The notes under the pieces are model-generated. The model was not told where the DNA came from. It saw only the letters and a list, made by a program, of their open reading frames with translations, and did no database searches. A stretch of DNA of 22,619 nucleotides from Paraspadella gotoi (Eukaryota > Animalia > Chaetognatha): NCBI GenBank assembly GCA_051294375.1, contig JBJCIZ010000122.1, positions 1-22,619 of the forward strand. The letters run 5' to 3'. This document shows positions 311-22,619 of the stretch, piece after piece. Numbering within the stretch: the first letter of the stretch is position 1; each line of letters begins with the position of its first letter. A program made the position numbers and the translations under genes.

Positions 311-642
311 TTTGACTTTATTATTTTCTTGTCTTCATCAATGCAAATGTTTGAGGATATGAGTCGAAAGTTTGAAGAATTTTGTTAAAAAATAAGTCAA
401 TTAACGTTGCCGAATTTTAATTAAAACTTTCTAAATAAATAAAATAATAATCATAGCAAAAGTCACATGATCGACAAATCAATGCTGCTTATTTTGGGTT
501 AATTTTGTTAATACTTTGCAAATAAGTGATAAATCATGAAATGGTTGTTGTGCAATGTGCGTAATGTTGTTTTGCGTAGGAACGTAATAATCTGAAATTG
601 GCATGTACATCAGGTCACCGTTCTCACTTCCTCCTTGTCCAG

Positions 643-894
643 GCATCCCATCTGTCTCCGCTTTAGTGATGTTCGGGGATTTCGTTCACAATTTCGTCGA
701 CGGCGTCGCCATAGCCGTCGGCTTCTCCGCCTCCCTCACCGTCGGGTGGACGACCTCATTGGCGGTGCTGCTCCACGAGCTGCCTCACGAATTCGGCGAC
801 TTCGCCGTCTTCGTCGCCTCGGGAATGTCGTACAAAAGGGCCTTGCTGCTCAATCTCATTTCCGCGTTGTCTGCCTTTGTGGGGTTTTTCTTGG
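643..894 (+). CDS. ZIP/SLC39A LIV-1 subfamily metal transporter, penultimate coding exon (TM4-TM6 region)
   Basis: Translation contains GDFVHNFVDG and HELPHEFGDFA (the HExPHExGD LIV-1 signature). Acceptor ttgtccag ends at 642; donor gtaag starts at 895; phase 1 at both ends. Upstream exons lie outside the window. The paralogue cannot be assigned by eye. Confidence 0.95.
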
Positions 895-2084
895 GTAAGG
901 ACTAAGGACTGATGACCGGATTGAGGACTGAGTGAGATTTTGTGGGTAGAAATGTATGGGGGTGAGAAGTATAGTGCGTTAAGAAGAAATGTCATTCAGC
1001 ATAACAATACGTAATCATTGATGTATTAGAGCTAATATATCGAGAAATACATTATAATCATCAGTAATCACAAAAAAATAAGTTTTTATTTATATGTAAA
1101 CATTATGTTTTTAATCATTTTTTTAAATGGGTAAATAAATATCTTGCTATTTGCTAAATAAGAAAATTGTTAAGTTAAATGGGTAAGCTCATTTTTTACA
1201 AAGAGTTTGTTTTTTCAATCTGTTTAGTTAAAAAATTTAGGTAAGAAAGTTTTAGGAGAAAACATTCTTGTTGTAAGGCCACGGGATCACTTCAATCTGA
1301 AAATGTAGACGAATCTTAATTTCCTGTATCTTAATCATTTTTCTCATAGTCTTTTTAAGCAGCGTTTTCTATTTAAAAAATGATCGATAATACTCTTTTT
1401 AAAAATCTTACAAAAATGTTCATAAAAATTTAAACAAAATTTTTTCTTTCGGTAAAACTAGATTTTTCCAGAGAAAATAATTATTTTATATGTAAGGCTG
1501 AATTTCTACAAACTAAATTTTTAACTTAAAACTGATTCTTACAGTAAGCTCGAATTTCCTACTATTTTTAGATGTAATCTTCCTTCGTCTACAAGTACAT
1601 ACTTGGAGTTGTCATCACTAATAAGTCTAAATAAAACTACTTTAGCACATATTTCCAGCATGGGTTTTATGCTTTTTATGAGGTTTATGAGTTAAAAAAC
1701 TTATCGAATTTATTTCAATTGACTTGTTTACTTTATGTAAATGTAATGAGTTAAATGGAGTACAGGAATTTTGACTTTCTTGACGAAGTGAAGTTAAAAA
1801 CGAAGAGTGCAGCTCAAACCGTTGACGTCTTTCTTTGAAGAAAAAACAATACTTGGGCAAAGAAAAGAAAGGTGGCGGGAGACTTCGTATGAGGCGTTTT
1901 TTTGAAAAAAATGTATTTTCGTTCAAAGATATCAGAGGAATGTAATCCCAAAATTGATAAAAAACTAATCATAATTTATATGCAAGGAAGGCAAATTTTG
2001 AAAGTATCTTTTCATAGAATTGGAGGTCCGTTCGACTTTAAAGGTAATTCATGCCAAATTCTCCAAGGATAACGCCGCATTACC

Positions 2085-2290: not shown

Positions 2291-3100
2291 TTAACAACGA
2301 TTTAATTGACATAAATAGTCAGACATGTTTCGGTCTTTCACTTAAGCCTTCATCATGTTTTTGACAATCAATATTTAGTCTCTGTGAAGTAAGTTTTGAG
2401 AGAGGATGAGAGAGAGAGAGAGAGAGAGAGAAAAATTGAGGGAGAGTTTCCAACAAAGAATAATATAAGGAGCAGTGGTCAGATGTGGAGCGACAGCGTG
2501 AAGGAAGGAGAGAGGAAGAAGTAAGTCGTGAAAAATGAAAAAAGAGTGAGAGAGAGAGAGAGAGCAAAGGCAAAAATTTAAACAATACATGAGCAATGTA
2601 CAACAGAGATAAAGTTATTAAGTAAATCTAATACATAAAACTGAAATTAAATGTTAAACAACGGAAATAAATAAGTTAGTAGAATAAAGTGAAATTTGAA
2701 ATAAAAATAAGTGGTGAGGATAGATAAAGTGAAGAAAAGTGAAAGTAAGTAAAGAAAGAGCTCAAAAATAGCTAGCCCCCCCCGGCCGGGCATGGAGGGC
2801 GTTGACGATGAAGGCGGGTCAGTTGGCCTGTCATAAGTTGCTGGAGGGTATATATGTAGAGTTTGTCATGCTGGGATCCGGAAGAGATCCGCCTGGGAAA
2901 ATGCCAAGTGCTACTTGTATATTCCCTTTGGCCTGATAAGCCTGCCAAAGCCCTCTCTCACCATGCGGTGAGGAGAGCAGTTTTCGTGTTCTGGCCTGTT
3001 TTGCTACAGGAGATACAGACTCCTCTCCCCTCCTCCTGTAGCCGTCGTTTTGGGCGCGCTCGGCGCGAGGAGAGTCGCGCCAAGTTGCTACAGCGGCTCA
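2291..3100 (-). mobile_element. Penelope-like/retrozyme element copy A, 5'-truncated (coding remnant, G-run, CT-rich terminal repeat, defective hammerhead)
   Basis: Minus strand reads an 88-codon open frame (3097-2834), a G-run, an AT/CT-rich region, then aTGATGAAGGCTT..AGACCGAAACATGTC (2356-2322, first core C missing) and the tail aaatcgttgttaa. Homologous to 10521-11222. Confidence 0.75.
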
Positions 3101-3122: not shown

Positions 3123-3606
3123 GCTCATTTTTGAGCTCTTTCTTCTTACTTACTTTCACTTTCTCACTTATCTATCCCTCACCATTTATTTTCTATTTCA
3201 AATTTCACTTATTCCACTAACTTATTTATTCCGTTGTTAACATTTAATTTCAGTTTATGTTTTAAAGATTTACTTAAATGCACACTTATCTCTGTTGTAC
3301 ATTGCTAAATGTATTGTTTAAATTTTGCTTTGCTCTTCCTTCTCGTCTCCACTCTTTCATTTTTCAAAGACTTACTTCTTCCCTCTCCTTACCTTCAGCT
3401 GTCCTCACATCTGACCACTTGTCCCTTATTCTTATTCTTTGTTGGAAACTCTCCCTCAATTTTTTTTTCTCTCTCTCTCGCTCTCTCTCTCTCTCAAAAC
3501 TTACTTTCAACAAGAACTAAAATATTGATTGTCAAAAACACTGATGAAGGCTCTAAGTTGAAAGAGCCGAAACATGTCTAATTTATTTCAATTAAATCGT
3601 TGTTAA
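3123..3606 (+). repeat. Inverted copy of the terminal repeat (pLTR-like) of copy A
   Basis: Reverse-complement match to 2291-2772 along about 480 bp with small indels (gagctcaaaaat / atttttgagctc at the inner ends; ttaacaacgatttaattg / caattaaatcgttgttaa at the outer ends). Confidence 0.92.
3527..3590 (+). ncRNA. Minimal type I hammerhead ribozyme, intact core
   Basis: CTGATGA (3541-3547), extra A, stem II GGCTCT/AGAGCC, GAAAC, AT, GTC with predicted cleavage after 3578. Palindromic ACATGT at stem III. Stem I is poorly paired in this copy. Confidence 0.85.
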
Positions 3607-5475: not shown

Positions 5476-5700
5476 CAAGCCTTCATCAATCATCAACGTT
5501 CAACAGTTTGTGAAAATAGAGTTGAAGTTTGTGCATAGGAAGAGTGTGAGAGAGAGAGAGAGAGGGCAAAAGTTTTCCAATAAAGTGGTGAGACAGAATA
5601 GTGGTCAGATGTGAGGACAGGGTAAGGTGAGGACAGACTGAGTAAGTTGTGAAAAGAAGTGAAACTTATTAGAGAGAGAAAGAAAGAAAGAAAACTAGTT
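5474..5700 (-). mobile_element. Penelope-like terminal repeat fragment with 5' half of the hammerhead
   Basis: ttcaagccttcatca (5474-5488; TGATGAAGGCTTGAA on minus), a (GA)n tract, and the family motif gtggtcagatgtgaggacag near 5601-5620. Confidence 0.75.
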
Positions 5701-7465: not shown

Positions 7466-7923
7466 ATTTTTTTAAAAAAAATGAAGAATAACTTATAATG
7501 ATATGCATTATCACATATAAATAAATCAGCTAATGTGACCTATTATATATGCAGCACTTTCGCCGAATAATATAATTGGCATGCATGCACATTATAAAAA
7601 AAATTTTGTGTTTTTATTTATTATTGCAACTTTGGACCGGTTGGCCCACTATTGGCAAATTATATCTAAAAATAGGAATTGATAAGAGAGATATAGTCAA
7701 ATTAAACATTACTTTTTTTTGTTATTCTGATAATTTGTACTATTATTAAATTTATAATATTATTTTTAGTGTATATATTTAATCATTTTTAAACTTTTTT
7801 TTTAAATAATAATTATTTGAGTTGTGATAACTATTTATAAATTAATTAATATGCAAATATTAAATTTGACCCTCGGTCTGGTTTCTTCCTAAAAAAAGAA
7901 CAATCTTTTTTTCTCTATCTCTC

Positions 7924-8611: not shown

Positions 8612-8654
8612 TCTTTCACCTCATACACGCATTTTGTTTTGTTTTTATTTACGA

Positions 8655-8890
8655 TGAATGATTCAGCGCGTCAATGAATCACTATCATCGCATCAATGAA
8701 TGACTATCATCGTATCAATGAATGATTATCATCATATCAATGAATGACTATCATCGCATCAATCATTTGATTATCATCACATCAGTCATTTTGTTATCAT
8801 CGCATCAATTATTGGTTATCATCGCGTCAATATTTGGTTATCATCGCATCAATATTTGGTTTATCATCGCATCAATTATTTGGTTACTAT
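8655..8890. repeat. Minisatellite, 22-24 bp unit, about 10 copies
   Basis: Core tatcatcgcatcaat repeated with linkers gaatgac, catttgat and atttggt. Confidence 0.9.
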
Positions 8891-9172
8891 CGAAAGCGGC
8901 TCGATCTTTATGCTTTTAAGATTTTTTATCTTAGATTTACATTCGTTTCAAAAAATTAGGAGGGCACAAGTTGTCCTTTATCGTCTCGAGAGACACGTCA
9001 AACCTCTCGTCTACGGCAAGAAACCACCCTCAACGTCTCTTTAATCTTCAACAGAGGACGCCGCTCCCGAGAGATTTCTCCGAGCAACTTAGCCGACGCA
9101 CCAGGCTCATCTGCTTTCGATTTCCCGCCATCGTCACCCGAAATCGGAAATTACGCTAACGTCAACGGCGAA

Positions 9173-10075
9173 ATGGCGGCCCCCACCGGCGCCAACGAAA
9201 CGGAAGTGTTGCGCTCCGCTCTCGCAGCGGCGCTCAAAGCCCTCGAAAAAAAGAACAAGCCCGAACTGCCGACCTTCGAACCCAAAAACATCGACATTTG
9301 GATCCGGAGGGTCGAGGCGACGTTCATCGCGCTAACATCAAGGAGGCGAGCGAAAAGTTCACGCATCTTGAATCGAAAATTAGCGTCGACGCCAACTCTC
9401 GCATAAATGCTTTTCTCTATGGCGATCCTTCTGAAGCAAACTGGACGGAATTCACTGCTTACCTCCATATTCCATAAGGAATACGGAATGACCCCGCGCC
9501 AAAAAGCGGCGCTCCTCGACGGTTTCGGACGCGATGGCCTACGCCCATCTCAACATCTAGCTAGACTAGAAGAAAAGATAAAGCCCATCACCATTGACGA
9601 TATCAAAAAAGAGACGACAGTCAGAGGTTTGCCACTCGAAATAAGGCGCGCCCTTGAAGACATAGTTGATGAATGGACGGCGTCGCAATTTGCCGACGCT
9701 GCCGACAAATTCTTCGATGCAGAGGGACGCCCGACTCTCGCGGCACCAACTTCGACGATCAACGCCGCTATCTCTGACAATCGCGCCGAAGACACGGTGA
9801 GCGGATCGGACAACGAAAACATCGGCATCAACGTCGTTCAGGGACAACGCCGCGACAGAAGTCGCCCGCAGCCATCCAGTTGGCGCCCTGGCACATCGAG
9901 CGCCTCGTCGGCGAACACTCGCCTCCCTAACGGGCGCCTGAAGCTGGTCTGCTGCTGGCACTTGAAGTTCGGTGACGCCGCTTTCCGCTGCGAGCGCGGC
10001 TGTGCTCGTAAAGGCAAACGCCGCGACCGAAAAGAAACCCAGTCAGGAAATGACGCCGCGGGACAGCGCAGGTGA
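9173..10075 (+). pseudogene. gag: Ty3/Gypsy gag, frameshifted
   Basis: N-terminal LPTFEPKNIDIWIRRVEATF, LRPSQHL motif and C-terminal CCWHLKFGDAAFRCERGC knuckle, typical of animal Gypsy gags. Two frameshifts near 9328 and 9465. Confidence 0.8.
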
Positions 10076-10385
10076 ACGCTGTACCCCGCGCCAATAAGGA
10101 CGATTCACCTGACAATTATCTGCTGCATGTAAAGGATGCCAGCGATGGCCGCCAATTGTTGGTCAATGGTGGTGCCCTCATCTCCCTCGTCCCGCCCACT
10201 GCAGCACAAAGAGTAGCAGGACCTGTTGGACCTCAGCTTCAAGCAGCCAACGGAAGCCCAATAAACTCCTATGGCGTCGTACATCGACGAATAGTACTCG
10301 GCTTGAGAGTTTTTCTTTTCGACATGCTCGCGGCCGATGTAACTCAAAATATTTTGGGCGCCGATTTCTTAGCCGTGTTTTACCT
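10072..10385 (+). pseudogene. pol: Ty3/Gypsy pol 5' end (aspartic protease), truncated before RT
   Basis: LLVNGGALISLVP (catalytic D replaced by N), LQAANGSPINSYG and ADVTQNILGADFL. In the -1 frame relative to gag; sequence turns AT-rich abruptly after 10385. Confidence 0.85.
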
Positions 10386-10480
10386 AGGGTTCCGTTAACC
10401 GTTAATTTTTGAGGAACTTCGCTTTAAACCGTATAACTAACGTTTTTAACGGTTAACCGTTAAAATCGGTTAATTTTATA
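10386..10480 (+). mobile_element. Possible terminus of a non-autonomous hAT-like DNA transposon
   Basis: Starts TAGGG exactly where the protease is cut and is followed by clustered AACCG/CGGTT motifs. The other end and a TSD were not seen. Confidence 0.4.
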
Positions 10481-10520: not shown

Positions 10521-11222
10521 AAGACAAGTCTTGATACAGCAACGATTTTATTTTATTGTACAGACAAGTTTCGGCTTTCATTCAAGCCTTCATCAGTGCT
10601 TTGACAATTCACAATTTTCATGTTTTTCCAAATTAACTTTGGAAGAGAGAGAGAGAGAGAGAGAAGAGAATAGAGAGAGAAGAAATGGCCAACAAAGATA
10701 TGAGACAGGACAGTGGTGAAATGTGAGGACAGGTTTAAGTTAGTAGAGAGAGAGAGAGAGAGAGGAATGTGAGGGAAAAGAAATTAAATTTGTGAATGAG
10801 GGAGAGAGAGACAGAGAAGCAGAGGTTAACATTTGGTAAGAAGAGTTACATTAGAAAATGTACAATGATAAATTTAATAAATAAGTAGACAGACTTAAAC
10901 AAACTAAAATATTTAAATTAATTCAGATAAATTAATTAATAAAGGAGTGAAGTTTAGATGAAATTGAAATAAAGATGTTGAGGGATAGGTAAGTGAAAGA
11001 GTAGAGAAAAATATAAGAAAAAGAAAAGAAAAAGCTCAAAATGAGCTGCCCCCCCCCCGGGTCAACAATGGGGGATGCTGACGATGTGGTCGGGTCATTG
11101 GTTTGTCATAGGCTGAGAGGCTATTGTGGTGGAGTGCGACATGGACGGGTCCGGTAGAGACCCCAGGCGGAAAGAGGCCAAGTGCAACTCGAATATCTCT
11201 CAGCGCTGATAAACCTGCCGGC
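10521..11222 (-). mobile_element. Penelope-like/retrozyme element copy D, 5'-truncated, abutting the BEL LTR
   Basis: Same order of parts as copy A: coding remnant (11222 to about 11100), G-run, CT-rich region, motif cagtggtgaaatgtgaggacag, hammerhead and tail. Confidence 0.8.
10555..10608 (-). ncRNA. Minimal type I hammerhead ribozyme, intact core with bulged stem I
   Basis: Minus strand reads ATTGT-caaa-GCA-CTGATGA-A-GGCTT-gaatga-AAGCC-GAAAC-TT-GTC-TGT-ACAAT. Stem I is GCA:TGT plus ATTGT:ACAAT. Confidence 0.88.
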
Positions 11223-11735
11223 AGACTTGGCTCTCCCGGCGTCGCGAGGTAGGCGTGGCTCGTCGTGAGAGAGACGTAAACGTAAATCTGACGGATCTCG
11301 AACGTCGAAAATATCTCGAAGAGAAAAGACTCGAAAACGGAACCAAATAATAAGACGAAATATAAATGTAAATGGAATATATCGAGCAGTAAGTCAAGCA
11401 GAAAATCCGACGTAAATCAAGCAAAAAATCGTACAAAAATCCGGAGAAAATAGTCGACGTCCGTAGAAATATCCGTGAGAAAATAGTTTGTGTCCAAAGA
11501 AAATCGTAAGCAAATCGTGATCAAAGTGAACTAAACTCGGTCTGTCTGGTCTTGTCCAAATAAAGTATTAGAGAGAAAGGGCGGGAGAAACCGGTAAGAG
11601 AGAGAGAGAAAGAGAGAGAGTGCGAATGAGTCGTACGGTCAATAACAGTCCGGTCAACTGGTCAGTCCGACGAACTCGGTCTCTCGTCCTTCGTCTGTCA
11701 ATCTCTTGGTCGGTCTGTCAGGGCCTTTCTCTACA
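11223..11735 (-). repeat. 3' LTR (about 520 bp; terminal 7 nt missing)
   Basis: Starts TGTAGAGA at 11735 on minus. 11223-11256 matches 22587-22619 with one indel. The 5' LTR ends TCTCTACA, giving an 8-bp terminal inverted repeat. Confidence 0.92.
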
Positions 11736-11745
11736 CCCCCGCCTC
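11736..11745 (-). promoter_or_regulatory. Polypurine tract
   Basis: GAGGCGGGGG immediately before the TG of the 3' LTR. Confidence 0.85.
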
Positions 11746-12837
11746 AGCTAGGAAACTCCGCTGACCATCTATAAGGCCTCGCAGGACCGACGGTCACATG
11801 GCGAACTTGTCTGACCTATCAACCCCAGATCGTTTGACTAGAATAAGTAAAAGACAATGACTAGAATATTTTTCCTGAGTAAATGGCCCGTTAAGTCGTT
11901 CTTCTCAGTTTTTTTGAAGGCGGTTGATACTGTCAGGGATGCGTCGGCCACCATCGGATTTCCTTTTGGTGTCGGTTGACGTAGTTAGCTGTTCATATAG
12001 GAGGGAAAGGAAAAAACACAGCAGACACAATTTCTTAAGCATTTCTCTTCATTCGTTATTCTTTCACATTCGCTTTTCCCATTATTTCCAATTTCATTAT
12101 TCATGTTTTATTTTATGAAACATCACTCCCCTGTTAATCTTTCCGGCGTCCATTGACGCCGGTCCCGTCGCTGACTTTTGTTTGAGGTTCAAGTGGACGT
12201 GACGCTGTTGGAGATCTGAGACTTAAAAGAAAGTTGTGGGGAGGGGATTCGAATTTCGGGATTTGTCTGATGGAGTTTAAACTCCGTCCCAATTGTTTAT
12301 ATAAATACGTGATAATTATTATGTATATATTTATATGAGTGTTCTCTATCGCTTTTTTATTAAAATCAAATCGTGAATTGTTATTGTTAGATTCATTTTT
12401 TTTTTTAAATAAATTAATAAATTAAAATATGTTTTCCTTTAATCATTTTTAAAATCGTCAAAGGGTTTATTAATTCTTAAATCATGATTCTTTTTCTTCC
12501 AGATAAATTGGTACTCCCACAATACGTATATCTTTTTTCAAAATCTCCAAACAATAATACTGCTATATGCAAATTTCATTTAAAGTCATACTATGAATTC
12601 AGAATGGAGGGCCCGTTGGGCCACGTCCAGAGTGGAGAGTCGCATCCAGATCCTCCGGCGGTTTTGAAGTACATGTAAAAAGGGGGCAGAAAAGAAAACA
12701 AATATCTTAATTAAATTAATGAAGTGTTTATTTAATCAATATTCTAATTAAAATTTAATTTCAGATTCGGAATTCGAATCCATCATCATAATAAAGGTAG
12801 AACAGGCTTTTTCTCATTTGAGATCACTGAAGCGTAC

Positions 12838-13537: not shown

Positions 13538-14575
13538 TTAAAAATCGGGATCCGCCGCGCCCTCTGCCGCGTCCTCGAACGTATACGGCGATGCGGGGGG
13601 CAGTTCCTTTTCTGATCCGGAGCCATTTCCAAATTCACACGTGTGGCCGCATCCAACTCCAGAACTGGCCGATTGGCCACGTTCAGAGCAGAGGGCCCGT
13701 TGACTATGTCCAGGACGGAGGGCCTGGCGGCCACGTCCTCTCCCTGGAAGGTTCACGGAGTTGCGGGTTTTCGCTGAAGGTCCACTGACTCCAGGGTCGG
13801 GTCCTATGGAAATTTCCCTCGCTATCTCCGGTTGTTTCTGCGCGAGCATAAGTCTCCTTAGTCGTCGTTTTTCCGTTTTCGTTTTGTAGTCCATCAAGCT
13901 ATTCGAGGTTGTTGGAGGGGCCCGGTTTGACGATCGAGTAGAAGACGGTGTTGGAGATGGAGCCGGCCTTGAACTTGAAGACGGGATTGGAGTTGGAGCC
14001 TGGATTGGTCTTCCTCCAGATCTTTGTCCTGAAGTTGTCGCCGTAACCGCTCTCCTGTTTTCGACCACTCTTGCTGCAATCCGCGCCTTTTCCACGATAT
14101 TTGGGAGTTCCTCTGAGGCCTTCTTTATGTTTGGTCGCTCATTTCTCATGAAGTCGTTTACAACAATATCCGGTTCGGAAGAAGGGGGCTCAGAATGTCC
14201 TTTGAAGCGAAACATGTCTCGTCTGAGTTGAGCAAATTTATAGCATCCTCCATGTTTCTGCCACCAACGATGGAGGAGCTCGCCTGGCTTCGCGGGAGCA
14301 TCCAAAACGACGATGTCAAACATCTGCTCGCACCAAGACATCAACAAAAAATCACATCCTTCTACAGTTTCATCTGGGAGGAGACCATAGACAGCCTCTT
14401 CGTTTGCGAATGAAGCCTTCACAAGCCAAACACGCTTTCCTTCATTGAGAGTCGCCGTCAGGAAAAATTCGATGGCGACAGTGCGATTTCCGCCGATCAT
14501 TCCAGCGCCGCCTCGAATATCAACGTCGCGTCTGATGCCGACAAAGGAATCGTAATTGTTGACATTGGCACTCAT
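13538..14575 (-). CDS. Accessory ORF of the BEL/Pao element (345 aa, unknown function, not env-like)
   Basis: ATG at 14575 lies about 45 nt after a strong acceptor ccccatctttcAG (14622-14621). Globular-looking N-terminal ~125 aa, then a Ser/Pro-rich linker and a basic patch KTKTEKRRLRR. No signal peptide or TM segment visible. Confidence 0.7.
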   Translation of the reverse strand: MSANVNNYDSFVGIRRDVDIRGGAGMIGGNRTVAIEFFLTATLNEGKRVWLVKASFANEEAVYGLLPDETVEGCDFLLMSWCEQMFDIVVLDAPAKPGELLHRWWQKHGGCYKFAQLRRDMFRFKGHSEPPSSEPDIVVNDFMRNERPNIKKASEELPNIVEKARIAARVVENRRAVTATTSGQRSGGRPIQAPTPIPSSSSRPAPSPTPSSTRSSNRAPPTTSNSLMDYKTKTEKRRLRRLMLAQKQPEIAREISIGPDPGVSGPSAKTRNSVNLPGRGRGRQALRPGHSQRALCSERGQSASSGVGCGHTCEFGNGSGSEKELPPASPYTFEDAAEGAADPDF

Positions 14576-14663
14576 TCTCAGTTTTTTATGTGTTTATCAC
14601 AGATTTCGTAAGAATATCACCTGAAAGATGGGGAAATCGATTTAAAGTTAGTCTTAAAGTTGA

Positions 14664-14694
<31 letters not shown>

Positions 14695-15779
14695 TTTAAA
14701 AGGGTCTCAAAAATTCTAACTGTGCAAGAATCAAGTCTTTTGATCGAAGTTAAGGATCCACAGTTCACACGCATCGTCGCCACAATGGAACCCAGTTCCG
14801 ACGTTCGTTCTCTAAGAAAAACAAAATAATAGTTAGAATTTACAAAATTTACAATGTCAGGTATATCATCATTCGTAAATCGTCATTCATAATCTTCCTA
14901 TAAGAGGATGTTTTATGTTTAAAATAATTTTAATAATAGTCTGAAAATAAACTGAATAATAAAAGGAATAAAATAAAAAAATCTAGTCATTAACTAAATA
15001 ATTTTAAATTTAAAAAAAAAACATAAATTCCATTAATTAGAATGACAAGCAGTGTCATATGCGCATCTGCTAATGTGACTCATAGGCGGTACCTACTAAA
15101 TATTCGGCAGTTACACCAAATTAATTTAAGCACATTATCATTCAAAGGGAAAAAAAAAATTTTATTTACTATTGTAGCTTTGGACCGGTCGGCCCACTAT
15201 TGCCAGATAATATCTAAAATAGTAACCGAGAAGAGATATAATTAAATAAAACAACTTATTTTGTTATTATAATGATTTGTACTATTATTAAATTAATAAA
15301 AAAATATAAATCTATTTACAAAAAATATTTATTTATTTTTCTTTAAGTTTATAATTGTTTGAATCGCGTTAAATCTTTATAAATTAGTTGAATATGCAAA
15401 TATACAATTTGACCTCGGTCTGGTTTCTCCCTAAACAAAAGATATTTCTGAAATTTAATTCAAGATTAAAATTTGTAAAATGAGGAAATAAAATTTATTT
15501 GATAAGTAAAAAGAAATGAAAATATTTAGAAGTCGAAAATATCATAGTCGTTAACTGAGTATTTTCGACTAAATATTTGTTTATAGAGACTAATTTTTGA
15601 CCATTATTATTGAAATAGTTTAACCCTATCGCGAGACGGAGTTTTCATTTCATACAATCAATCAATCTCATTCTTTTTCATTAATATGCGAATGGTGAGG
15701 TCTTCAACCTCATTTTGAACTTGGTGAACAAAAGACTTCAGTCTTATTTCAATTAAAAAAATAGAAAGTTAATTGAAGC

Positions 15780-18700
15780 TTAATCACACTCTAACAAAAC
15801 AATTTTATTTCTATCACGTTCTAAATATTTGTTTGCGGTTTTGATAACCACTCTTCTTACGTGACCATTCTCATTGTCCACTCTTTCCACTCTTCCAAGT
15901 TTCCATTCATCCCTCGGTAAATTTTCGTCAACTATCAAAACTAGCTGACCTATTTTTACATTCGGTTCTGTTTTCTGCCACTTTTCTCGGGCTTGGAGGG
16001 TCAATACATACTCATCTCTCCATCTCACCCAGAATTCATCAATAAGATCACGTGATTTAGTCCATTCAGCTCTAAATTCATCCCCTGACCAAGATTCTGG
16101 TGGAATAATCGCTGGTCGTGAACCAGTGAAAACTCCTGGATAAAGAATATCGGCTGGGCTGATTGCGTTCAAGTCTGTTACGTCGTCACTTTCTTGTGTA
16201 AGGGGGCGTTTGTTTATAATGCCCTCTACCGCGACGAGTACAGTTGTAAACATTTCCAAAGTTAAGTTTTCTTTTTTCAAAACAGAATCGAGATGGCATT
16301 TTGCTAGTTTCACCATTCGTTCCCAGACGCCGCCCCAATGGGGGGCGTTGGGGGGACCAAAAACCCATTCAAATCCATATTCTAATAATCTATTGCTCAT
16401 TTGTTCATTTTGCCAACTTTCAATCGCCTTTTGGATTTCGAGATTCGCGCGTCGAAAATTCGTTCCATTATCGGAGTAGAATTTTCGTGATCCTGGGCGA
16501 CGGGAGTTGAATCGAATTAATGCATTTATAAAGGATGAGCTTGATATATCATCTAAAACTTCAAAATGCACACCTCTCATTTTTAAACAAGTAAAGAGAG
16601 CAACCCATCGTTTATGCACTGCTCGGCCTGTAATTTTTACTTTATAAGGGCCAAACAAATCCACTCCGGTTACTTCGAAAGGCGAGCCGCGATGGAGCCG
16701 GTCCTCAATAAGTGGCGCCATTTTTTGTATTGCCGGGGGTTTGAAGTTCTTCTGACAACCAATACATTTCCCAATAACTTTTTTCGTGGTTCTACGGAAA
16801 CATTGGATGTGAAATCGTTTTCGTAATTCACTAATTACGTGATTTGTGCTGGCGTGACATTCGGAAATATGAATATGACGAATCAGATCGTGAACTATAG
16901 AATCATCCTTAGGCAGGATGATAGGATGTTTCATGTCATAATCATAACTGGCATTACACAATCTACCACCAACTCTCATCAAACCACTCTTGTCCAAAAA
17001 CGGGTTCAGTTGTCTAAGAATTGACTTTAAGTTTAACTCTTTTCTCCCGCTTGGTTCATTAATGTCTTTTTCTCTAAGTTCTTTTATTTCTTTTTCGAAA
17101 TAAGCATTTTGCAGTGCCTTAATCATTATTCGTTCAGCATTATTAATGTCGTCCAAAGTGAGTCTCATCTCTTTTACATTTAAAATTTCTTTTTTTGCTT
17201 TTCTTTTTATTGCCTTTTCAACTAAGGCAATTCGTCTGAGTTTTTGATAATACCGCTCAGTGTACTTACCAAGCTTAATTGCCCAGTGGTTGATAGGGCT
17301 ATCATCTTCACGTTCAAACATTTTCGCATCTACAGAATTGACATTTAAATCATATGGAAGTGGATCCATTGAGATTTTCTGTTCTGGCCATTCCTCTTCA
17401 GGAAGGCATAAAAAATCAGGACCTTTGTGAAAACGTTGCCATTTTTCATCGTCAGCTGATAGGCCACGGCTGCAGTCATCGGCTGGGTTCATTTTTGTCG
17501 GAACATATCGCCAATCTTCGATATTACTTAGTTCGTGAATTCGAGATAAGCGGTTTTTGAAAAATACCACAAATCGTTTTGATTTGTCTCGGATCTGTTT
17601 CAAAACAGTCTCACTATCAGTCCACATTACAATTCTTAAAAATTTATCATTCGTGCATTCTTCAACAATCAATTGACGGATTTCACAAGCCAATCTTGCC
17701 GCCGTCAATTCAAGTTTTGGAATGGAGTTGTGGTGACCCGTTTTTATCGAATCTAAGGGTGTGACCTTAGACTTTGATAATAGAAACGCAACGTGAGGAT
17801 CGCCCCCGCCTTTTGGGCACGCCCTCCGGTAAACGGAGACTCCATATCCCTCCATTGAAGCATCACAAAAGATGTGAAGTTCTGCAGGTTCATTGGTAGT
17901 TGCTGGAGTGGCAACCCATCGTGGGATTTTAACTTCCTCAAGCTTTGGAAGCTGTTCTTTCCAAGCATCAACTTCTTTTTGGAGATCATTCGGCAAGGGA
18001 GCATCCCAAGCCATCTCCAAGGCTGTTGCCTTTTGAAAAATCATTCTTCCCTTTATTGTAAAAGGGGAAACAAGACCAAGTGGATCATACAAGCTTGCAG
18101 TCAAGGAAAGGAGTTGTCTCCTTGTTTTGCAAGGTTTCGCCAATTTCTCTTTGTTGATTTTAAAGTGAAAATGGTCATCACCAAAATCATAACCAACACC
18201 CAGGATTTTGTCAGTTACCACAAGAGGTTGACATAACCGATCTGGTTCTAAAACAAGAGTTGGAGGACCATCTCCAATCTCACCAAGCACACTGGGATCT
18301 GAGCACTTCCACTTGCCCAGTTCAAAGCCACCTCTGGCCATTGCTTCAGTCAGACCTTCCTTCAACTTCCTGGCTGTCTCAGCATCAGGAATGGAGCTGA
18401 TGAAGTCATCAACATAGAAAGCTCGAAGGATGGCTTCAATCACATCGTCAGGGAAGACTCCAACAAGGGACTCAGCATGGTAGTGGAGTGCATAGTTTGC
18501 AACAACTGGAGATGAAGTGGCACCAAAGATGTGGACCTTCAACTCAAACAAAGCAAGCTTTGTGCATTCTTTGTCTTCCCACCACCAATATCGGAAGACA
18601 TGGACATCATTTTCGTCAACAAAAATCTGGTGAAAGAACATTTTAATGTCGGCATGAATAGCAATCTCATGACGTCGGAAACGAAGCAAGATGCCAATCA

Positions 18701-19781
18701 AGCTGTTCATTAAATCAGGGCCCGTTAAAAGCTGGTCATTGAGACATTTTCCTTTCACCTTTGCTGCAGCATCATGACAAACTCTCACTTTGTTCTTGTC
18801 CTTACGGACAACAACAAGCAACGGTAAGTTCCACTGAGGAATGCCATCCTCAGTCTCAACATGTTCTACTTTCTGGACATTCCCAGCATCAACCTCTTTC
18901 TTAATCTCTTCCCAAACCTTAGCTCGGGCCTCAGGATCTTTGTTGAGCTTTTTCATTAGGGAATTTAGTCGATTTAAAGCCATTCCATTTGAATCGCGTT
19001 GATTCAAGATCTCGGCTGCTTTCTTTCTCCCTTCCTTCCAGGGTAACCCTACTACATAATGGCCTATATCAGGGTCAAACCTAATGGATGATCTCAACTG
19101 ATGCATAGCATATTCATCATCTAGAGAAGGTTGGAGTTTCATAGTGGGTTTTGTTTCAAAATCCTGATTAAAGAGTCGTTTTATATCCTCTCTAATTGTC
19201 TGCTCATCTTCTTCCACAAATTCTGCAGTCATACGAGCACAATCAATCGTTTCTTCATTTACTCCTTGGCGTGGTCCAATCAAAGTCCAGCCAAAGTCAG
19301 TTTTCATGCCAATAGGAAGATTTTCATCACCCCGTCTAATCTCACCATTAGTCCAAGTGTAGGCTAATTGAGCGGGCAAGAGAACTTCAACTTCCTTATG
19401 GTCCAATTCATAAAATTTGATGCCTTCAAGATGGGGCATCCCTTGAATCTCTTCATTTGTTGGTGGAAAATCATCTTCGGTGGAAAGTAGATTCCCTACC
19501 ACACATTTTTTCATAGTAATGGAAAAATCGCTTTCTAAGTTTTCGAGGTTTACATCACAAAGATCCTTCTCACAAACAGAAACTGAGTCATAAGATCGTA
19601 TTTTCATAGTTGCTTTCGTTGTTTCAATTCCCATGTCCTTAGCAGCGCTGGTCTTAATCACACATCTGTTGCACCCTGTATCAATCATCGCCCATGTGGG
19701 CTTTTTTCTACCATTCCATTCAATCACTACAGGAACAACAGGCCGATATGATGACTCACCGGGGGCAGAAGCCACAGCTAG
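15780..19781 (-). CDS. pol: BEL/Pao Pol polyprotein (PR-RT-RNase H-IN), intact
   Basis: PR AMIDTGC. RT RVCHDAA, LLTGPDL, ADIKMFFHQI, FGATSSP, FYVDDF. RH LHIFCDAS, IPKLELTAA, WTDS, NPADDCSRG. IN HHCC, GVDLFGP, SDNGTNF, WGGVWERMV. The frame is open directly after the gag stop; the ORF track start at 19775 is a GTG. Confidence 0.98.
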   Translation of the reverse strand, partial: LAVASAPGESSYRPVVPVVIEWNGRKKPTWAMIDTGCNRCVIKTSAAKDMGIETTKATMKIRSYDSVSVCEKDLCDVNLENLESDFSITMKKCVVGNLLSTEDDFPPTNEEIQGMPHLEGIKFYELDHKEVEVLLPAQLAYTWTNGEIRRGDENLPIGMKTDFGWTLIGPRQGVNEETIDCARMTAEFVEEDEQTIREDIKRLFNQDFETKPTMKLQPSLDDEYAMHQLRSSIRFDPDIGHYVVGLPWKEGRKKAAEILNQRDSNGMALNRLNSLMKKLNKDPEARAKVWEEIKKEVDAGNVQKVEHVETEDGIPQWNLPLLVVVRKDKNKVRVCHDAAAKVKGKCLNDQLLTGPDLMNSLIGILLRFRRHEIAIHADIKMFFHQIFVDENDVHVFRYWWWEDKECTKLALFELKVHIFGATSSPVVANYALHYHAESLVGVFPDDVIEAILRAFYVDDFISSIPDAETARKLKEGLTEAMARGGFELGKWKCSDPSVLGEIGDGPPTLVLEPDRLCQPLVVTDKILGVGYDFGDDHFHFKINKEKLAKPCKTRRQLLSLTASLYDPLGLVSPFTIKGRMIFQKATALEMAWDAPLPNDLQKEVDAWKEQLPKLEEVKIPRWVATPATTNEPAELHIFCDASMEGYGVSVYRRACPKGGGDPHVAFLLSKSKVTPLDSIKTGHHNSIPKLELTAARLACEIRQLIVEECTNDKFLRIVMWTDSETVLKQIRDKSKRFVVFFKNRLSRIHELSNIEDWRYVPTKMNPADDCSRGLSADDEKWQRFHKGPDFLCLPEEEWPEQKISMDPLPYDLNVNSVDAKMFEREDDSPINHWAIKLGKYTERYYQKLRRIALVEKAIKRKAKKEILNVKEMRLTLDDINNAERIMIKALQNAYFEKEIKELREKDINEPSGRKELNLKSILRQLNPFLDKSGLMRVGGRLCNASYDYDMKHPIILPKDDSIVHDLIRHIHISECHASTNHVISELRKRFHIQCFRRTTKKVIGKCIGCQKNFKPPAIQKMAPLIEDRLHRGSPFEVTGVDLFGPYKVKITGRAVHKRWVALFTCLKMRGVHFEVLDDISSSSFINALIRFNSRRPGSRKFYSDNGTNFRRANLEIQKAIESWQNEQMSNRLLEYGFEWVFGPPNAPHWGGVWERMVKLAKCHLDSVLKKENLTLEMFTTVLVAVEGIINKRPLTQESDDVTDLNAISPADILYPGVFTGSRPAIIPPESWSGDEFRAEWTKSRDLIDEFWVRWRDEYVLTLQAREKWQKTEPNVKIGQLVLIVDENLPRDEWKLGRVERVDNENGHVRRVVIKTANKYLERDRNKIVLLECD

Positions 19782-22256
19782 TCAGCTAGATAAGGGAGGA
19801 GTTGCGGTGGCAGAATCTTGTTGGCGAGGGCCTGGAGAAGATGGCGTTCTCGCAGCAGCTCCCGTGAGTGGAGTCATATTGAGGCGTTGATTTTGAGGCG
19901 GCCGGGTCGGGGTTCGTGCCGGGGAGTTGGCGACCACCTTAGCATACGTCGTTGGGTCCTGTCTTGGAGAAAAAGCTGTTATACCATGCACTACTGTATT
20001 ATGTGGACCAGTACACACGAGACAGCATTCTTTGTCCCAAGTACATTGCTTAGCAAGATGATTTTTGCCCAAACAACGAAAACATAATCCATTCTTTTTC
20101 ATGACATTGGCTTTACCTTCTTTTGACAGTTTCAGAAAAGATTTGCAAGCCTCAAGCATATGCCATTCATTGCAGTATTCACAAGCATGTTCCAACACAT
20201 CACTAATATGATTCAATGCAATATTGGTTTCATCAACTTTCACCTTGCGAGTATGTCGAGATCCAGATGGTGGAGATCCTTGGGTGACCTTTAGGGGCCT
20301 AACCTTCGTCACTGATCCCCCGCCGTTTACATTCTGGCGCGACTCATCGGCGTTGATGGCGGCGACGTCGACCGTAACCTTTTTCTTTTGCCTCGCATAG
20401 GCGCCTTTCTCGAAGAGAATCCTTTTCTTAAGGTAAGCAATAAAGTCATCAAATTTCAACTTTTTTCCGTGGTCGTATTGGTAGTCGGCGTCTTTTTTCG
20501 CGAAATCTGTCTTTAAAAAATCACATCTTGTTTCCAAAATCTCATTGATCACCGTATCTTTATCAAGGTCTGATCCTTTGCCATTCTTGTCAGCCATAGC
20601 TTTAACATTCTCAAGTTCCGTGGTCAGCTTGTCAAGTTCGGTCTTGTTGCCTGGTAAGATCTTTGGTTTGGATAGAATATCCTTCAGCAAGTCATGAACA
20701 GTAGCATTCTTCTTTCCAAATTCCTTCCAAAGAGTTTCTAAAGCTTCTTTGATAGCCTCAGTGTGACCAGATTCTTTCATAAGGAATTTCGACAATTTCA
20801 TTTGAGCTAAACCAGTAAACCAGTGGTTAAGTTCTTGTAACTTGACTTCGTCCGTAGCTTCGGCCTGACACATGGTTGTCTCATATGCACGCATGTGTAA
20901 CTCAAAAACAGGTCCAGCATTCTTATCTTCACCTGTAAATGGTTTCTTTGGCCTTCCTTGTTCAACATTTCGTAGCATGGAATCCTTTTTTGATTGCTTT
21001 ATCCAAGCAGCCATGATTGAATCGTCAAAACCTGATGTTGCTCGGGCTGGTGATGAAGTTGGAGCAGGAGCAAGTGTTGGAGTAGGAGCTGGAGAAGGAG
21101 CGGGTTTTGTAGTTGGTTTTGAGGTTGGAGGAGCCGGATCGAATGAAATACTGCGAGTAGAGGTCCCTCCAAAACTGACTCGGCGTTTCTTCTCTCTGTC
21201 TAGTTCCTTAGTAAGGGTTTCAATGGTTTTTTCAAGGTCGTGAATTCTGCTTTCCTGCTTCTTCAGTTCCACTCCATGATTGATGCAACAGTCTTCTAAT
21301 TGGGTCATGGTTTCAATTTGTCCAGGTCGAAATTCATTGAAGGCGTTTTCCATGCATTCCATTCGTCCATGAAGAGATTGGAAGGCTCTTCTCATTTCCA
21401 TTAATTCATTTCTCAGTTGGCCATTCTCTACAGACAAAGATTGCCGTTCCTTTTTGACAGTGCTCGTCCTTGCATTGGCACCAAAGAATGAGCGGGCCTC
21501 ATTGAAAGATTGAGTCTTCTTTTCAAGCTTCTCATTGATGAGCTTCATCTCTCTTTCTTTGACTTCATTCATGTGAGCCATTTCCTTTTCAATTTCTTGT
21601 TTTCTTTTTTCCATTTCACGTCCATACTGCTCTTCCTTCCTTTTCTTCTCAGCTTTGATGAGAGTCAACTCACGTTCTTCCTTGTTCAGGTTGCGAAATG
21701 TTTGATCATCCCAAGACAGGTCCAATTCTTGGAGGTCGTAGTCAGGTCCGGAATCCTCATCATCGTTAGCAGCAACATTCGTTCCATTCACAACAGCATC
21801 ATATGCCCTATCAATAAATCCCTCAAGATCATTGGAATCACCATTCACCTGCTTCACTGCCGTTTCCGGGTTTTCCGAAGTCGAATCATTATCGTCTTCT
21901 TCACTTTGCTCTTCATCCAATTCCTTTTGTGGTTCGTTGGCCTCATTCACGGGTGCGCGGGCGTTACCATCTCGACGTCGACGGATGGTAACGTGCCCCA
22001 TTTGAGTGCTTTCGTCAAGCATCCGGCGTTGTATCGAGCCTTGGGGGTAGGATATTTTTACCATCTTAATCTGAGAGATTTTCTCCATGACGAGTGGCTC
22101 CAATCCCTTGGCCATGGCGACTGCCTCCGGGGTGCCGAGTTCGTGATAACGCTCAATCAGATTGGTAAGAGCTTTGACGGCATCATGTATCCCCTCAGGA
22201 GTAAAATCGTCCATGTTGATCTTTCCGCGCTCCACGATAAGAGATTCAATCGACAT
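19782..22256 (-). CDS. gag: BEL/Pao Gag (824 aa), intact
   Basis: Coiled-coil N-terminal half, Pro-rich linker, capsid-like region, and triple knuckle CEYCNEWHMLEAC / CFRCLGKNHLAKQC / CLVCTGPHNTVVH. Confidence 0.95.
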   Translation of the reverse strand: MSIESLIVERGKINMDDFTPEGIHDAVKALTNLIERYHELGTPEAVAMAKGLEPLVMEKISQIKMVKISYPQGSIQRRMLDESTQMGHVTIRRRRDGNARAPVNEANEPQKELDEEQSEEDDNDSTSENPETAVKQVNGDSNDLEGFIDRAYDAVVNGTNVAANDDEDSGPDYDLQELDLSWDDQTFRNLNKEERELTLIKAEKKRKEEQYGREMEKRKQEIEKEMAHMNEVKEREMKLINEKLEKKTQSFNEARSFFGANARTSTVKKERQSLSVENGQLRNELMEMRRAFQSLHGRMECMENAFNEFRPGQIETMTQLEDCCINHGVELKKQESRIHDLEKTIETLTKELDREKKRRVSFGGTSTRSISFDPAPPTSKPTTKPAPSPAPTPTLAPAPTSSPARATSGFDDSIMAAWIKQSKKDSMLRNVEQGRPKKPFTGEDKNAGPVFELHMRAYETTMCQAEATDEVKLQELNHWFTGLAQMKLSKFLMKESGHTEAIKEALETLWKEFGKKNATVHDLLKDILSKPKILPGNKTELDKLTTELENVKAMADKNGKGSDLDKDTVINEILETRCDFLKTDFAKKDADYQYDHGKKLKFDDFIAYLKKRILFEKGAYARQKKKVTVDVAAINADESRQNVNGGGSVTKVRPLKVTQGSPPSGSRHTRKVKVDETNIALNHISDVLEHACEYCNEWHMLEACKSFLKLSKEGKANVMKKNGLCFRCLGKNHLAKQCTWDKECCLVCTGPHNTVVHGITAFSPRQDPTTYAKVVANSPARTPTRPPQNQRLNMTPLTGAAARTPSSPGPRQQDSATATPPLSS

Positions 22257-22384
22257 CGTATGAAATCAAGAAAAATAAAATTGGATGAGAGAAAGCAAAG
22301 GTAAGTTGGAATCAATCAATTCAAATAAAGTTGAGTTTAAATTTTAAATAAAAAGTTGCTTAAAGATTTTGGCAAATTCGTTGT

Positions 22385-22385
<1 letters not shown>

Positions 22386-22438
<53 letters not shown>
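22386..22438. repeat. (CAAT)n microsatellite, about 13 units, in the element 5' leader
   Basis: Read directly. Confidence 0.95.
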
Positions 22439-22439
<1 letters not shown>

Positions 22440-22568
22440 CTTTGATCCGATTTACCTTGGATTGATGTCGGTTCCGATCCAAAGGTTGTCAGTAACTAGT
22501 TTGGAAGACGGCAAAAAATCCAAATAAAATCAATCAAATGAACCAAACTTACCTGTTGATGCAATGGT

Positions 22569-22579
22569 TATTTTCTCAC
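22569..22579 (-). promoter_or_regulatory. Non-tRNA primer binding site candidate (GTGAGAAAATA)
   Basis: Directly follows the LTR-terminal CA, has no TGG, and is complementary to the LTR 11-mer at 11475-11485. Confidence 0.6.
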
Positions 22580-22619
22580 TGTAGAGAGACTTGGCTCTCC
22601 CGCGTCGCGAGGTAGGCGT
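22580..22619 (-). repeat. 5' LTR, U5 end (partial)
   Basis: Plus strand TGTAGAGAGACTTGGCTCTCC..., matching the 3' LTR end at 11223. Confidence 0.92.

What the first reader, a model, noticed from the sequence alone, without database searches (positions are those of the whole stretch)
22569..22579. BEL/Pao retrotransposon with a Tf1-like self-priming signature instead of a tRNA PBS
Seen: on the element strand the 5' LTR ends ...TCTCTACA and is followed at once by GTGAGAAAATA; there is no TGG-starting tRNA PBS next to the LTR. Inside the LTR (3' copy, 11485-11475) the same strand reads TATTTTCTCAC, the exact 11-nt complement. The pairing stops precisely at the LTR boundary, so the 3' end of this 11-mer would sit poised to copy U5. 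The 11-mer also starts in an initiator-like CTATTTT near mid-LTR. Established: fission yeast Tf1 and related Tf1/sushi Ty3/Gypsy elements prime minus-strand synthesis with the first ~11 nt of their own RNA, whereas BEL/Pao elements are normally described as tRNA-primed. Inference: this lineage may self-prime, which I do not recall being described for BEL/Pao. Caveats: the 5' LTR copy of the 11-mer is outside the window, and the LTR has related A-rich repeats (gagaaaata near 11444) that raise the odds of a chance match.
Basis: partly seen in the sequence, partly recalled or inferred. Interest (0 to 1): 0.9.

Follow-up and report, generated by a model that had tools for sequence, protein, structure and literature searches.

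The report
BEL/Pao clade lacking tRNA primer site
This animal jumping gene and its closest readable relative lack the usual tRNA landing site; this copy instead carries 11 letters that pair with its own terminal repeat, so it likely starts copying itself with its own RNA, but the pairing is not kept in the relative and the idea is untested.

Summary
Observation confirmed. On the minus strand the 5' LTR ends TCTCTACA and is followed at once by GTGAGAAAATA; its exact complement lies at 11485-11475 in the 3' LTR (6 of 5000 dinucleotide shuffles; 29 of 1500 tetranucleotide shuffles). The missing TGG site is not a private deletion: a sister leader in two runs and a relative with 42% Pol identity (L001) also lack it, while 5 of 5 more distant BEL/Pao junctions have it. 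L001's best complement is 4 nt; most LTR depth in 4 of 4 runs has a mismatch in the 11-mer; an LTR variant lacks it; the sister leader changed at +3 with no compensation seen. What all three keep is CTACA|GTRAG, a splice-donor-like word. The 11-mer is one unit of a T-rich array, and the best initiator-like word lies about 47 nt upstream. Verdict: priming without a tRNA 3' end is likely for this gag-stop-pol clade; self-priming is the leading but unproven mechanism (about 0.4). The scan noted BEL/Pao self-priming before on other DNA (six unchecked notes).

The parts
22580..22619 (-). last 40 nt of the 5' LTR (U5 end, ...TCTCTACA)
   Evidence: 97% match to 11223-11256 and 8 of 8 inverted match to the LTR start
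22569..22579 (-). post-LTR 11-mer GTGAGAAAATA at the primer-binding position, zero spacer; begins with a splice-donor-like GTRAG
   Evidence: identical in an X4 contig over 22448-22607
22548..22555 (-). second donor-like word CAG|GTAAG, 27 nt after the LTR
   Evidence: sequence; use as a donor not shown
19782..22256 (-). gag-position ORF, 824 aa from ATG, ends in TGA; no Pfam family passes
19778..19784 (-). gag/pol junction TGACTAG, pol in the same frame; inferred stop-codon readthrough signal
   Evidence: same 7 letters in 6 of 6 clade members with this junction
15780..19781 (-). pol, 1333 aa open frame: protease, RT, Pao Peptidase_A17 region, integrase zinc finger, DUF5641
14812..19759 (-). 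4948-nt stretch with GT..AG ends skipped by one contig of run X9 (RNA is a guess): likely intron removing pol
   Evidence: table 5
13538..14593 (-). extra ORF (351 aa stop to stop) between pol and the 3' LTR, no known family
11736..11749 (-). polypurine-tract-like stretch abutting the 3' LTR
11223..11735 (-). 3' LTR, 513 nt, cut short at its end by a high-copy repeat
11529..11534 (-). TTAGTT, best arthropod-type initiator-like word (motif recalled), about 47 nt upstream of the 11-mer
   Evidence: start site not mapped
11506..11516 (-). upstream array unit GATTTGCTTAC, ending in the complement of GTAAG
   Evidence: aligns with the TTAC unit of L001 in a weak low-complexity alignment
11475..11485 (-). 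TATTTTCTCAC, exact complement of the post-LTR 11-mer; candidate self-primer
11412..11491 (-). 80-nt block of the T-rich array holding the 11-mer and two sister units; skipped by an LTR variant in 3 of 4 runs
   Evidence: tables 5 and 5c

Best explanation
This is a BEL/Pao retrotransposon of a gag-stop-pol clade that has no TGG tRNA site next to its LTR, and it likely primes minus-strand DNA with a piece of its own LTR-derived RNA, for which the 11-mer at 11485-11475 is the best but untested candidate. Shown: the element, the missing TGG site in three leader types, the exact complement in this copy. Inferred: the R region folds back onto the first bases after U5, RT/RNase H cuts 3' of the paired stretch as in Tf1, and the freed 3' end copies U5. 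Probably unlike Tf1, the paired unit sits in a T-rich array and may lie some 47 nt inside the transcript, and the primer site likely doubles as a 5' splice site (GTRAG), which would explain why its first five letters are kept.
For: Exact 11-nt complement that stops at the boundary, rare in shuffles and the best anchored duplex in 0 of 200 shuffles. Zero spacer. No TGG site in the window, in a sister leader (X4, X5) or in L001, whereas 5 of 5 outgroup junctions carry TGG 0-5 nt from the LTR and have only 4-5 nt of LTR complement. The window's form of the 11-mer is a real path in X1 (227 of 969 depth lack the linked change at 11472), of the order of two LTRs of the element (internal depth 64-82). 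The common variant still keeps 8 contiguous pairs at the priming end (-9.2 against -12.5 kcal/mol). The array has a unit ending CTCAC (fits GTGAG) and one ending CTTAC (fits the sister's GTAAG); the variant lacking the 80-nt block has depth 752 in X4, about twice the sister leader's 369, a fit that is not proof of linkage. Self-priming is the documented alternative at a zero-tRNA site in Tf1, Tj1, Tcn1 and TAR (passages read in PMC7175516, PMC4600332, PMC6317226).
Against: L001, the only independent clade member with a readable junction, has 4 nt of exact complement and an anchored duplex no better than chance (47 of 200 shuffles). The mismatched form carries 56% (X1), 76% (X4), 100% (X5) and 100% (X9) of depth at 11483, and no leader with the matching change at 22571 appears among the 55 records laid. 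The sister leader pairs with either 11-mer form at only -6.1 or -2.8 kcal/mol, and the X5 LTR contig shows no compensating change. An LTR variant lacks the 11-mer in 3 of 4 runs. The window's 3' LTR has letters seen in none of the runs (11393, 11560, 11645), so it is a mutated or error-prone copy. The T-rich array raises chance to 2% (exact rule) or 14% (loose rule) under tetranucleotide shuffling. Free covariation would not keep GTRAG fixed.
Confidence: 0.4

Rival explanations
1. The conserved feature is a 5' splice site placed at the LTR boundary (for a leader intron, a subgenomic RNA of the extra ORF, or U1-based masking of the 5' poly(A) site). The 11-nt match is a by-product of a T-rich LTR array, and the true primer is a host RNA not yet identified, such as an internal tRNA fragment.
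For: GTRAG at +1 in the window, the sister leader and L001, though it occurs once in 4044 nt of the 3' region. L001's leader has an acceptor-like TTCCTTTACAG at +546. The element is spliced elsewhere in one X9 contig. No complement in L001. Half-tRNA priming is known in copia lineages (PMC6317226, passage).
Against: Window and L001 share only the first five or six letters, too few for one shared host primer. No contig joins at this donor (X9 does not cover it). It leaves the p of about 0.001-0.02 match as luck.
Confidence: 0.33
2. The capped 5' end of U1 snRNA (or another trans-acting small nuclear RNA) pairs with GTRAG at the LTR boundary and, after a Tf1-type cut, serves as the primer.
For: Explains why GTRAG is fixed at +1 while the three bases before it (ACA) do not fit a donor's exon side, so pairing would stop at the boundary (sequence; U1 pairing rule recalled, not from a call).
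Against: Only about 5-7 pairs are possible, fewer in the window's GTGAGAA; no precedent known to me; no Rfam match or host snRNA was available to test.
Confidence: 0.07
3. The copies are defective or mis-bounded: a normal PBS was lost or the LTR end is misplaced, and the match is chance.
For: The 3' LTR is truncated and carries private differences; L001 is a collapsed metagenome contig whose LTR start lacks the first T.
Against: gag and pol are open; the same junction is in other runs; two lineages at 42% Pol identity have the same TGG-less CTACA|GTRAG junction.
Confidence: 0.12
4. The primer is made by splicing an intron inside the LTR, as two earlier notes of this scan propose for other BEL/Pao families.
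For: Only the earlier unchecked notes.
Against: All GT/GC..AG pairs in both LTRs were tried: best 8 nt at offset 2 in the window, best 6 nt exact in L001, none at a good donor.
Confidence: 0.04

Closest known systems
Tf1/Tf2 (S. pombe), Tj1 (S. japonicus), Tf1/sushi and Tcn1 chromoviruses (Ty3/gypsy); TAR copia lineage
   Same: No tRNA site; a stretch of the LTR is complementary to the bases right after the 5' LTR; 11 nt as in Tf1 (PMC7175516, PMC4600332, PMC6317226, passages). [quoted passage not shown]
   Different: BEL/Pao Pol; the 11-mer is not shown to be the first 11 nt of the RNA; it sits in a degenerate array; it is not conserved in the nearest readable relative; the site begins with a splice-donor-like word.
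Belpaoviridae / BEL/Pao elements (ICTV profile PMC8742986, whole text read)
   Same: Domain order PR-RT-RH-IN, Pao Peptidase_A17 and DUF5641 hits, TG..CA LTR of about 0.5 kb, purine tract.
   Different: The profile gives an 18-nt tRNA-Arg/Gly site and one continuous or two overlapping ORFs; here there is no TGG site, gag and pol are in one frame split by TGACTAG, the element is about 11.4 kb plus the unseen LTR part, and an extra non-env-matching ORF lies 3' of pol.
C. elegans Cer7-type BEL elements with an element-encoded primer RNA (recalled; not confirmed by any search)
   Same: BEL/Pao members said to prime without a host tRNA.
   Different: There the primer is recalled as a separate tRNA-like RNA ending in CCA; here no TGG site exists and the only long complement in the whole element is the LTR 11-mer.

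Membership tests
BEL/Pao (Belpaoviridae) | Pol with PR-RT-RH-IN order and Pao-type domains | tested here: met
   Peptidase_A17 E 1.7e-40, DUF5641 E 1.9e-23, protease, RT and integrase-zinc hits in order; named homologs carry the same Pfam set
BEL/Pao (Belpaoviridae) | TG..CA LTRs of 0.2-1.2 kb and a purine tract | tested here: met
BEL/Pao (Belpaoviridae) | PBS complementary to a host tRNA 3' end (starts TGG) | tested here: not met
   first TGG at +35 in the window and +13 in L001; 5 of 5 outgroup junctions have it at 0-5 nt. Phylogenetic membership stands; this trait departs.
Tf1-type self-priming | 10-12 nt LTR complement to the bases right after the 5' LTR | tested here: met
   11 of 11 in this copy, read from the 3' LTR; the 5' LTR copy is outside the window
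Tf1-type self-priming | complement conserved or covarying among relatives | tested here: not met
   L001 4 nt; variant at 11483 without a partner change, sister leader change without a visible partner change; only one independent relative, and linkage of variants unknown
Tf1-type self-priming | the complement is the first 11 nt of the transcript | tested here: inconclusive
   7 YYANWYY words in the LTR; TCAKTY at nt 107 and TTAGTT at nt 202, not at 251; only contigs were available
Tf1-type self-priming | RNase H cleavage of the RNA duplex and an RNA primer on strong-stop DNA | not testable with these tools
   needs biochemistry
Tf1/sushi group (Ty3/gypsy) | chromovirus-type RT phylogeny | tested here: not met
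   Pol is BEL/Pao by Pfam and homologs
half-tRNA priming (copia type) | PBS complementary to an internal tRNA stretch | not testable with these tools
   no host genome held; no tRNA gene in the 8 loci scanned
splice-junction self-primer (earlier scan notes) | 11 or more nt complement formed across an LTR intron | tested here: not met

The most novel reading that the evidence does not exclude
A whole uncharted BEL/Pao clade (gag-TGACTAG-pol, extra spliced 3' ORF) has replaced the tRNA site by a 5' splice site at the LTR boundary that is also the primer site, primed by a cut piece of the element's own R-region array (or by U1 snRNA), so that splicing and the start of reverse transcription compete for the same five bases.
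Probability: 0.2. Interest if true: 0.9.

Novelty: new variant of a known kind. Interest (0 to 1): 0.56.

Why it matters
BEL/Pao elements are described as tRNA-primed and their replication as poorly understood (PMC8742986). A tRNA-free clade would show that priming without a tRNA 3' end arose in a third LTR superfamily, would explain why PBS-based finders miss such elements, and gives a sharp test: map the RNA start and read the primer. The kept GTRAG suggests a link between splicing and priming that I did not find described.

Tried and rejected
No whole genome is held, so family-wide covariation and host tRNAs could not be examined. Viral contigs: no relative by protein; one 19-nt pattern match (L058) has no other similarity and is chance. 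Prokaryote genomes: one short pol fragment, no LTR. Of 56 metagenome loci only L001 gave a clade junction; L002, L005, L006, L010, L011 end before an LTR could be called; L012 was not resolved; L021 and L022 are near-copies of L020 and were not scored. No RNA holder listed on record; X9 is a guess, and its lack of cover at the leader is not used. Splice-junction primer rejected. Folding L001 LTR plus leader from four candidate starts gave a local hairpin over the site, not a 5'-end pairing. L001's AGTTCATTTAC (11 nt from a TCAGTT word, 6 pairs then a loop) looked Tf1-like but is no better than chance (47 of 200). Rfam: nothing relevant. Host identification through the ZIP exon timed out; the protein atlas did not answer. 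Extra 3' ORFs of window and five loci share no tblastx similarity. Two primary Tf1 papers were not held.

Full report
Observation. On the minus strand the window begins with 40 nt of an LTR ending TCTCTACA, followed with no spacer by GTGAGAAAATAACC. The 3' LTR starts TGTAGAGA at 11735 behind a purine tract and is cut short at 11223 by another repeat. TATTTTCTCAC lies at 11485-11475, LTR nt 251-261, and the pairing is exactly 11 nt. The first TGG after the LTR is at +35. An 11-nt complement at offset 0 arose in 6 of 5000 dinucleotide, 23 of 5000 trinucleotide and 29 of 1500 tetranucleotide shuffles; 3 of 10,814 positions along the element reach 11 nt, one being the site itself; under the looser rule used for plant elements (10 nt or more, offsets 0-5; PMC6317226, passage) chance is 95 of 5000, 383 of 5000 and 207 of 1500. 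The match is real and above chance, by a margin that depends on how much of the LTR's T-rich texture is kept.

The element. An 824-aa gag-position ORF ends in TGA and is followed in frame by a 1333-aa pol with BEL/Pao domains. The junction reads TGACTAG in 6 of 6 clade members that cover it; readthrough is inferred, and the UGA-CUA-G context is recalled, not from a call. About 4 kb lie between pol and the 3' LTR, with a 351-aa ORF of no known family; one X9 contig joins 19760 to 14811 across GT..AG ends, X9 being RNA only by guess. In a FastTree RT tree of 71 sequences (window, proteins up to P0045 plus 11 picked named ones, loci with over 170 RT residues; midpoint root; no named reference elements) the window groups with unnamed metagenome proteins and L001, L002, L004, L005, L007, L008 (support 0.88 on this side, 1.00 on the other), apart from all named animal proteins and from the TGG-bearing loci. 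The host was not identified.

Is the tRNA site lost only here? No. Of the records laid on 22200-22619 (20, 23, 9 and 3 in X1, X4, X5, X9), one X4 contig is identical to the window over 22448-22607 (depth 281); a sister leader with 22 differences and 4 gaps is in X4 (369) and X5 (15) and reads GTAAGAAAATA after the same LTR end; LTR ends followed by GTGAGA and a GA run are also deep (X1 263, X5 110). L001 (42% Pol identity) holds one LTR of about 284 nt after a purine tract, ending GACTACA and followed by GTAAGTACCGG. Five more distant BEL/Pao loci with readable junctions (L020, L023, L025, L031, L032) all have TGG 0-5 nt from the LTR. So the TGG-less junction is a clade trait as far as two lineages can show.

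Covariation test. It did not pass. L001's longest exact complement is 4 nt (757 of 1000 shuffles reach it) and its best anchored duplex, -7.6 kcal/mol, is matched by 47 of 200 shuffles, against 0 of 200 for the window. In the runs, a change at 11483 (third base of the 11-mer) carries 742 of 1327 depth in X1, 14,717 of 19,453 in X4, and all of it in X5 and X9 (40 of 192 difference rows shown, threshold 5%), and no leader shows the matching change at 22571 (all rows shown). That form keeps 8 contiguous pairs at the priming end, -9.2 against -12.5 kcal/mol; the sister leader pairs at only -6.1 or -2.8. An LTR variant skips 11412-11491, the block with the 11-mer, in X1 (204), X4 (752) and X9 (17). 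In favour: the window's form is a real minority path in X1; contigs drop minor paths, so X5 and X9 cannot exclude it; variants cannot be linked to leaders; a sister LTR under 85% alike or under 5% of depth would be invisible. The X4 depth of the shorter LTR is about twice that of the sister leader, and the unit left in it, GATTTGCTTAC, ends in the complement of GTAAG; this would be a weak covariation if the linkage holds. The window's 3' LTR also has letters seen in no run (11393, 11560, 11645), so it is not a clean copy.

What is kept. All leader types begin GTRAG after CTACA. GTRAG occurs once in 4044 nt of the 3' region and twice in the 322-nt leader, and L001's leader has an acceptor-like tract at +546. 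This looks like a 5' splice site (motif recalled); no joined contig shows its use. The 11-mer is one of a run of degenerate ATTT..YAC units from 11516 on. Its 'initiator' is one of 7 YYANWYY words; TTAGTT lies at LTR nt 202 and resembles L001's TCAGTT at nt 35, so the RNA may start about 47 nt before the 11-mer. A primer formed across an LTR intron, suggested by earlier notes of this scan, was tested and not found.

Mechanism. Most likely (0.4) the R region pairs with the first bases after U5, is cut 3' of the duplex as in Tf1, and primes; the site likely doubles as a splice donor. Rivals: conserved splice site with an unknown host primer and a lucky match (0.33); defective or mis-bounded copies (0.12); U1 snRNA as primer (0.07); splice-junction primer (0.04). 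Every step after the pairing is inferred.

Literature. Read whole: PMC8742986 (ICTV profile: 18-nt site for tRNA-Arg or -Gly). Passages only: PMC7175516 (Tf1: first 11 bases, RNase H cut between 11 and 12), PMC4600332 (Tj1), PMC6317226 (Tcn1, TAR, half-tRNA), PMC3601003, PMC5443660, PMC3118150 and PMC2996953 (no mention of PBS or primer found), PMC554778, PMC4558846, PMC3315495, PMC2194720 (nothing on this point). Searches: 'BEL Pao'+self-priming+retrotransposon 0 papers; related searches listed 5, 6, 4 and 7 papers and 20 of 215. None of the passages read gives self-priming to BEL/Pao; the other listed papers were seen as listings only. Subscription journals and Repbase reports are not in the library, and no supplements were opened; PBS tables there could bear on novelty. 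Cer7-type self-encoded primers are recalled only. Six earlier AI notes on other genomes report BEL/Pao self-priming; they are unchecked leads, and none matched this DNA by sequence.

Verdict. Observation confirmed; interpretation partly supported. A TGG-less BEL/Pao clade is well indicated; this 11-mer as a Tf1-type primer is plausible, unproven, and failed the one independent conservation test. New variant of a known kind; interest 0.56.

Noticed in passing
window 19784-19778 (-); L001, L004, L005, L007, L008: gag and pol in one frame, split by the same TGACTAG in 6 of 6 clade members: likely stop-codon readthrough, not listed in the ICTV profile of the family
   Followed up: partly
window 15779-11736 (-); L002 3030-6175; L006 2570-5135; L010, L011 3' ends: long 3' regions with extra ORFs unrelated to each other by tblastx; one X9 contig splices out pol (19759-14812)
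   Followed up: partly
window 8960-10400 (+): second, broken LTR-element-like piece: gag-like frames and a weak aspartyl-protease match (Pfam E 0.13)
   Followed up: partly
window 591-902 (+): exon of a ZIP zinc transporter (Pfam E 2e-23)
   Followed up: partly
window 2291-2769, 3127-3606, 5541-5689, 10540-11219: high-copy repeat family, two copies inverted at 86%; one copy abuts and cuts the 3' LTR at 11223
   Followed up: no
window 22578-22619: the last 40 nt of the LTR are shared with far more abundant related LTRs (depth about ten times the LTR's in X5); some are followed by GTGAGA and a GA run, perhaps a non-autonomous family
   Followed up: partly
window 22376-22447: (ATTG)n microsatellite inside the leader
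   Followed up: no
window 22305-22297 (-): AACTTACCT in the leader is complementary to the second donor-like word at 22554-22546
   Followed up: no
window 15160-15442 and 7612-7899; 8654-8892: another repeat inside the element's 3' region with a copy at 7612-7899; a degenerate 22-nt tandem array at 8654-8892
   Followed up: no
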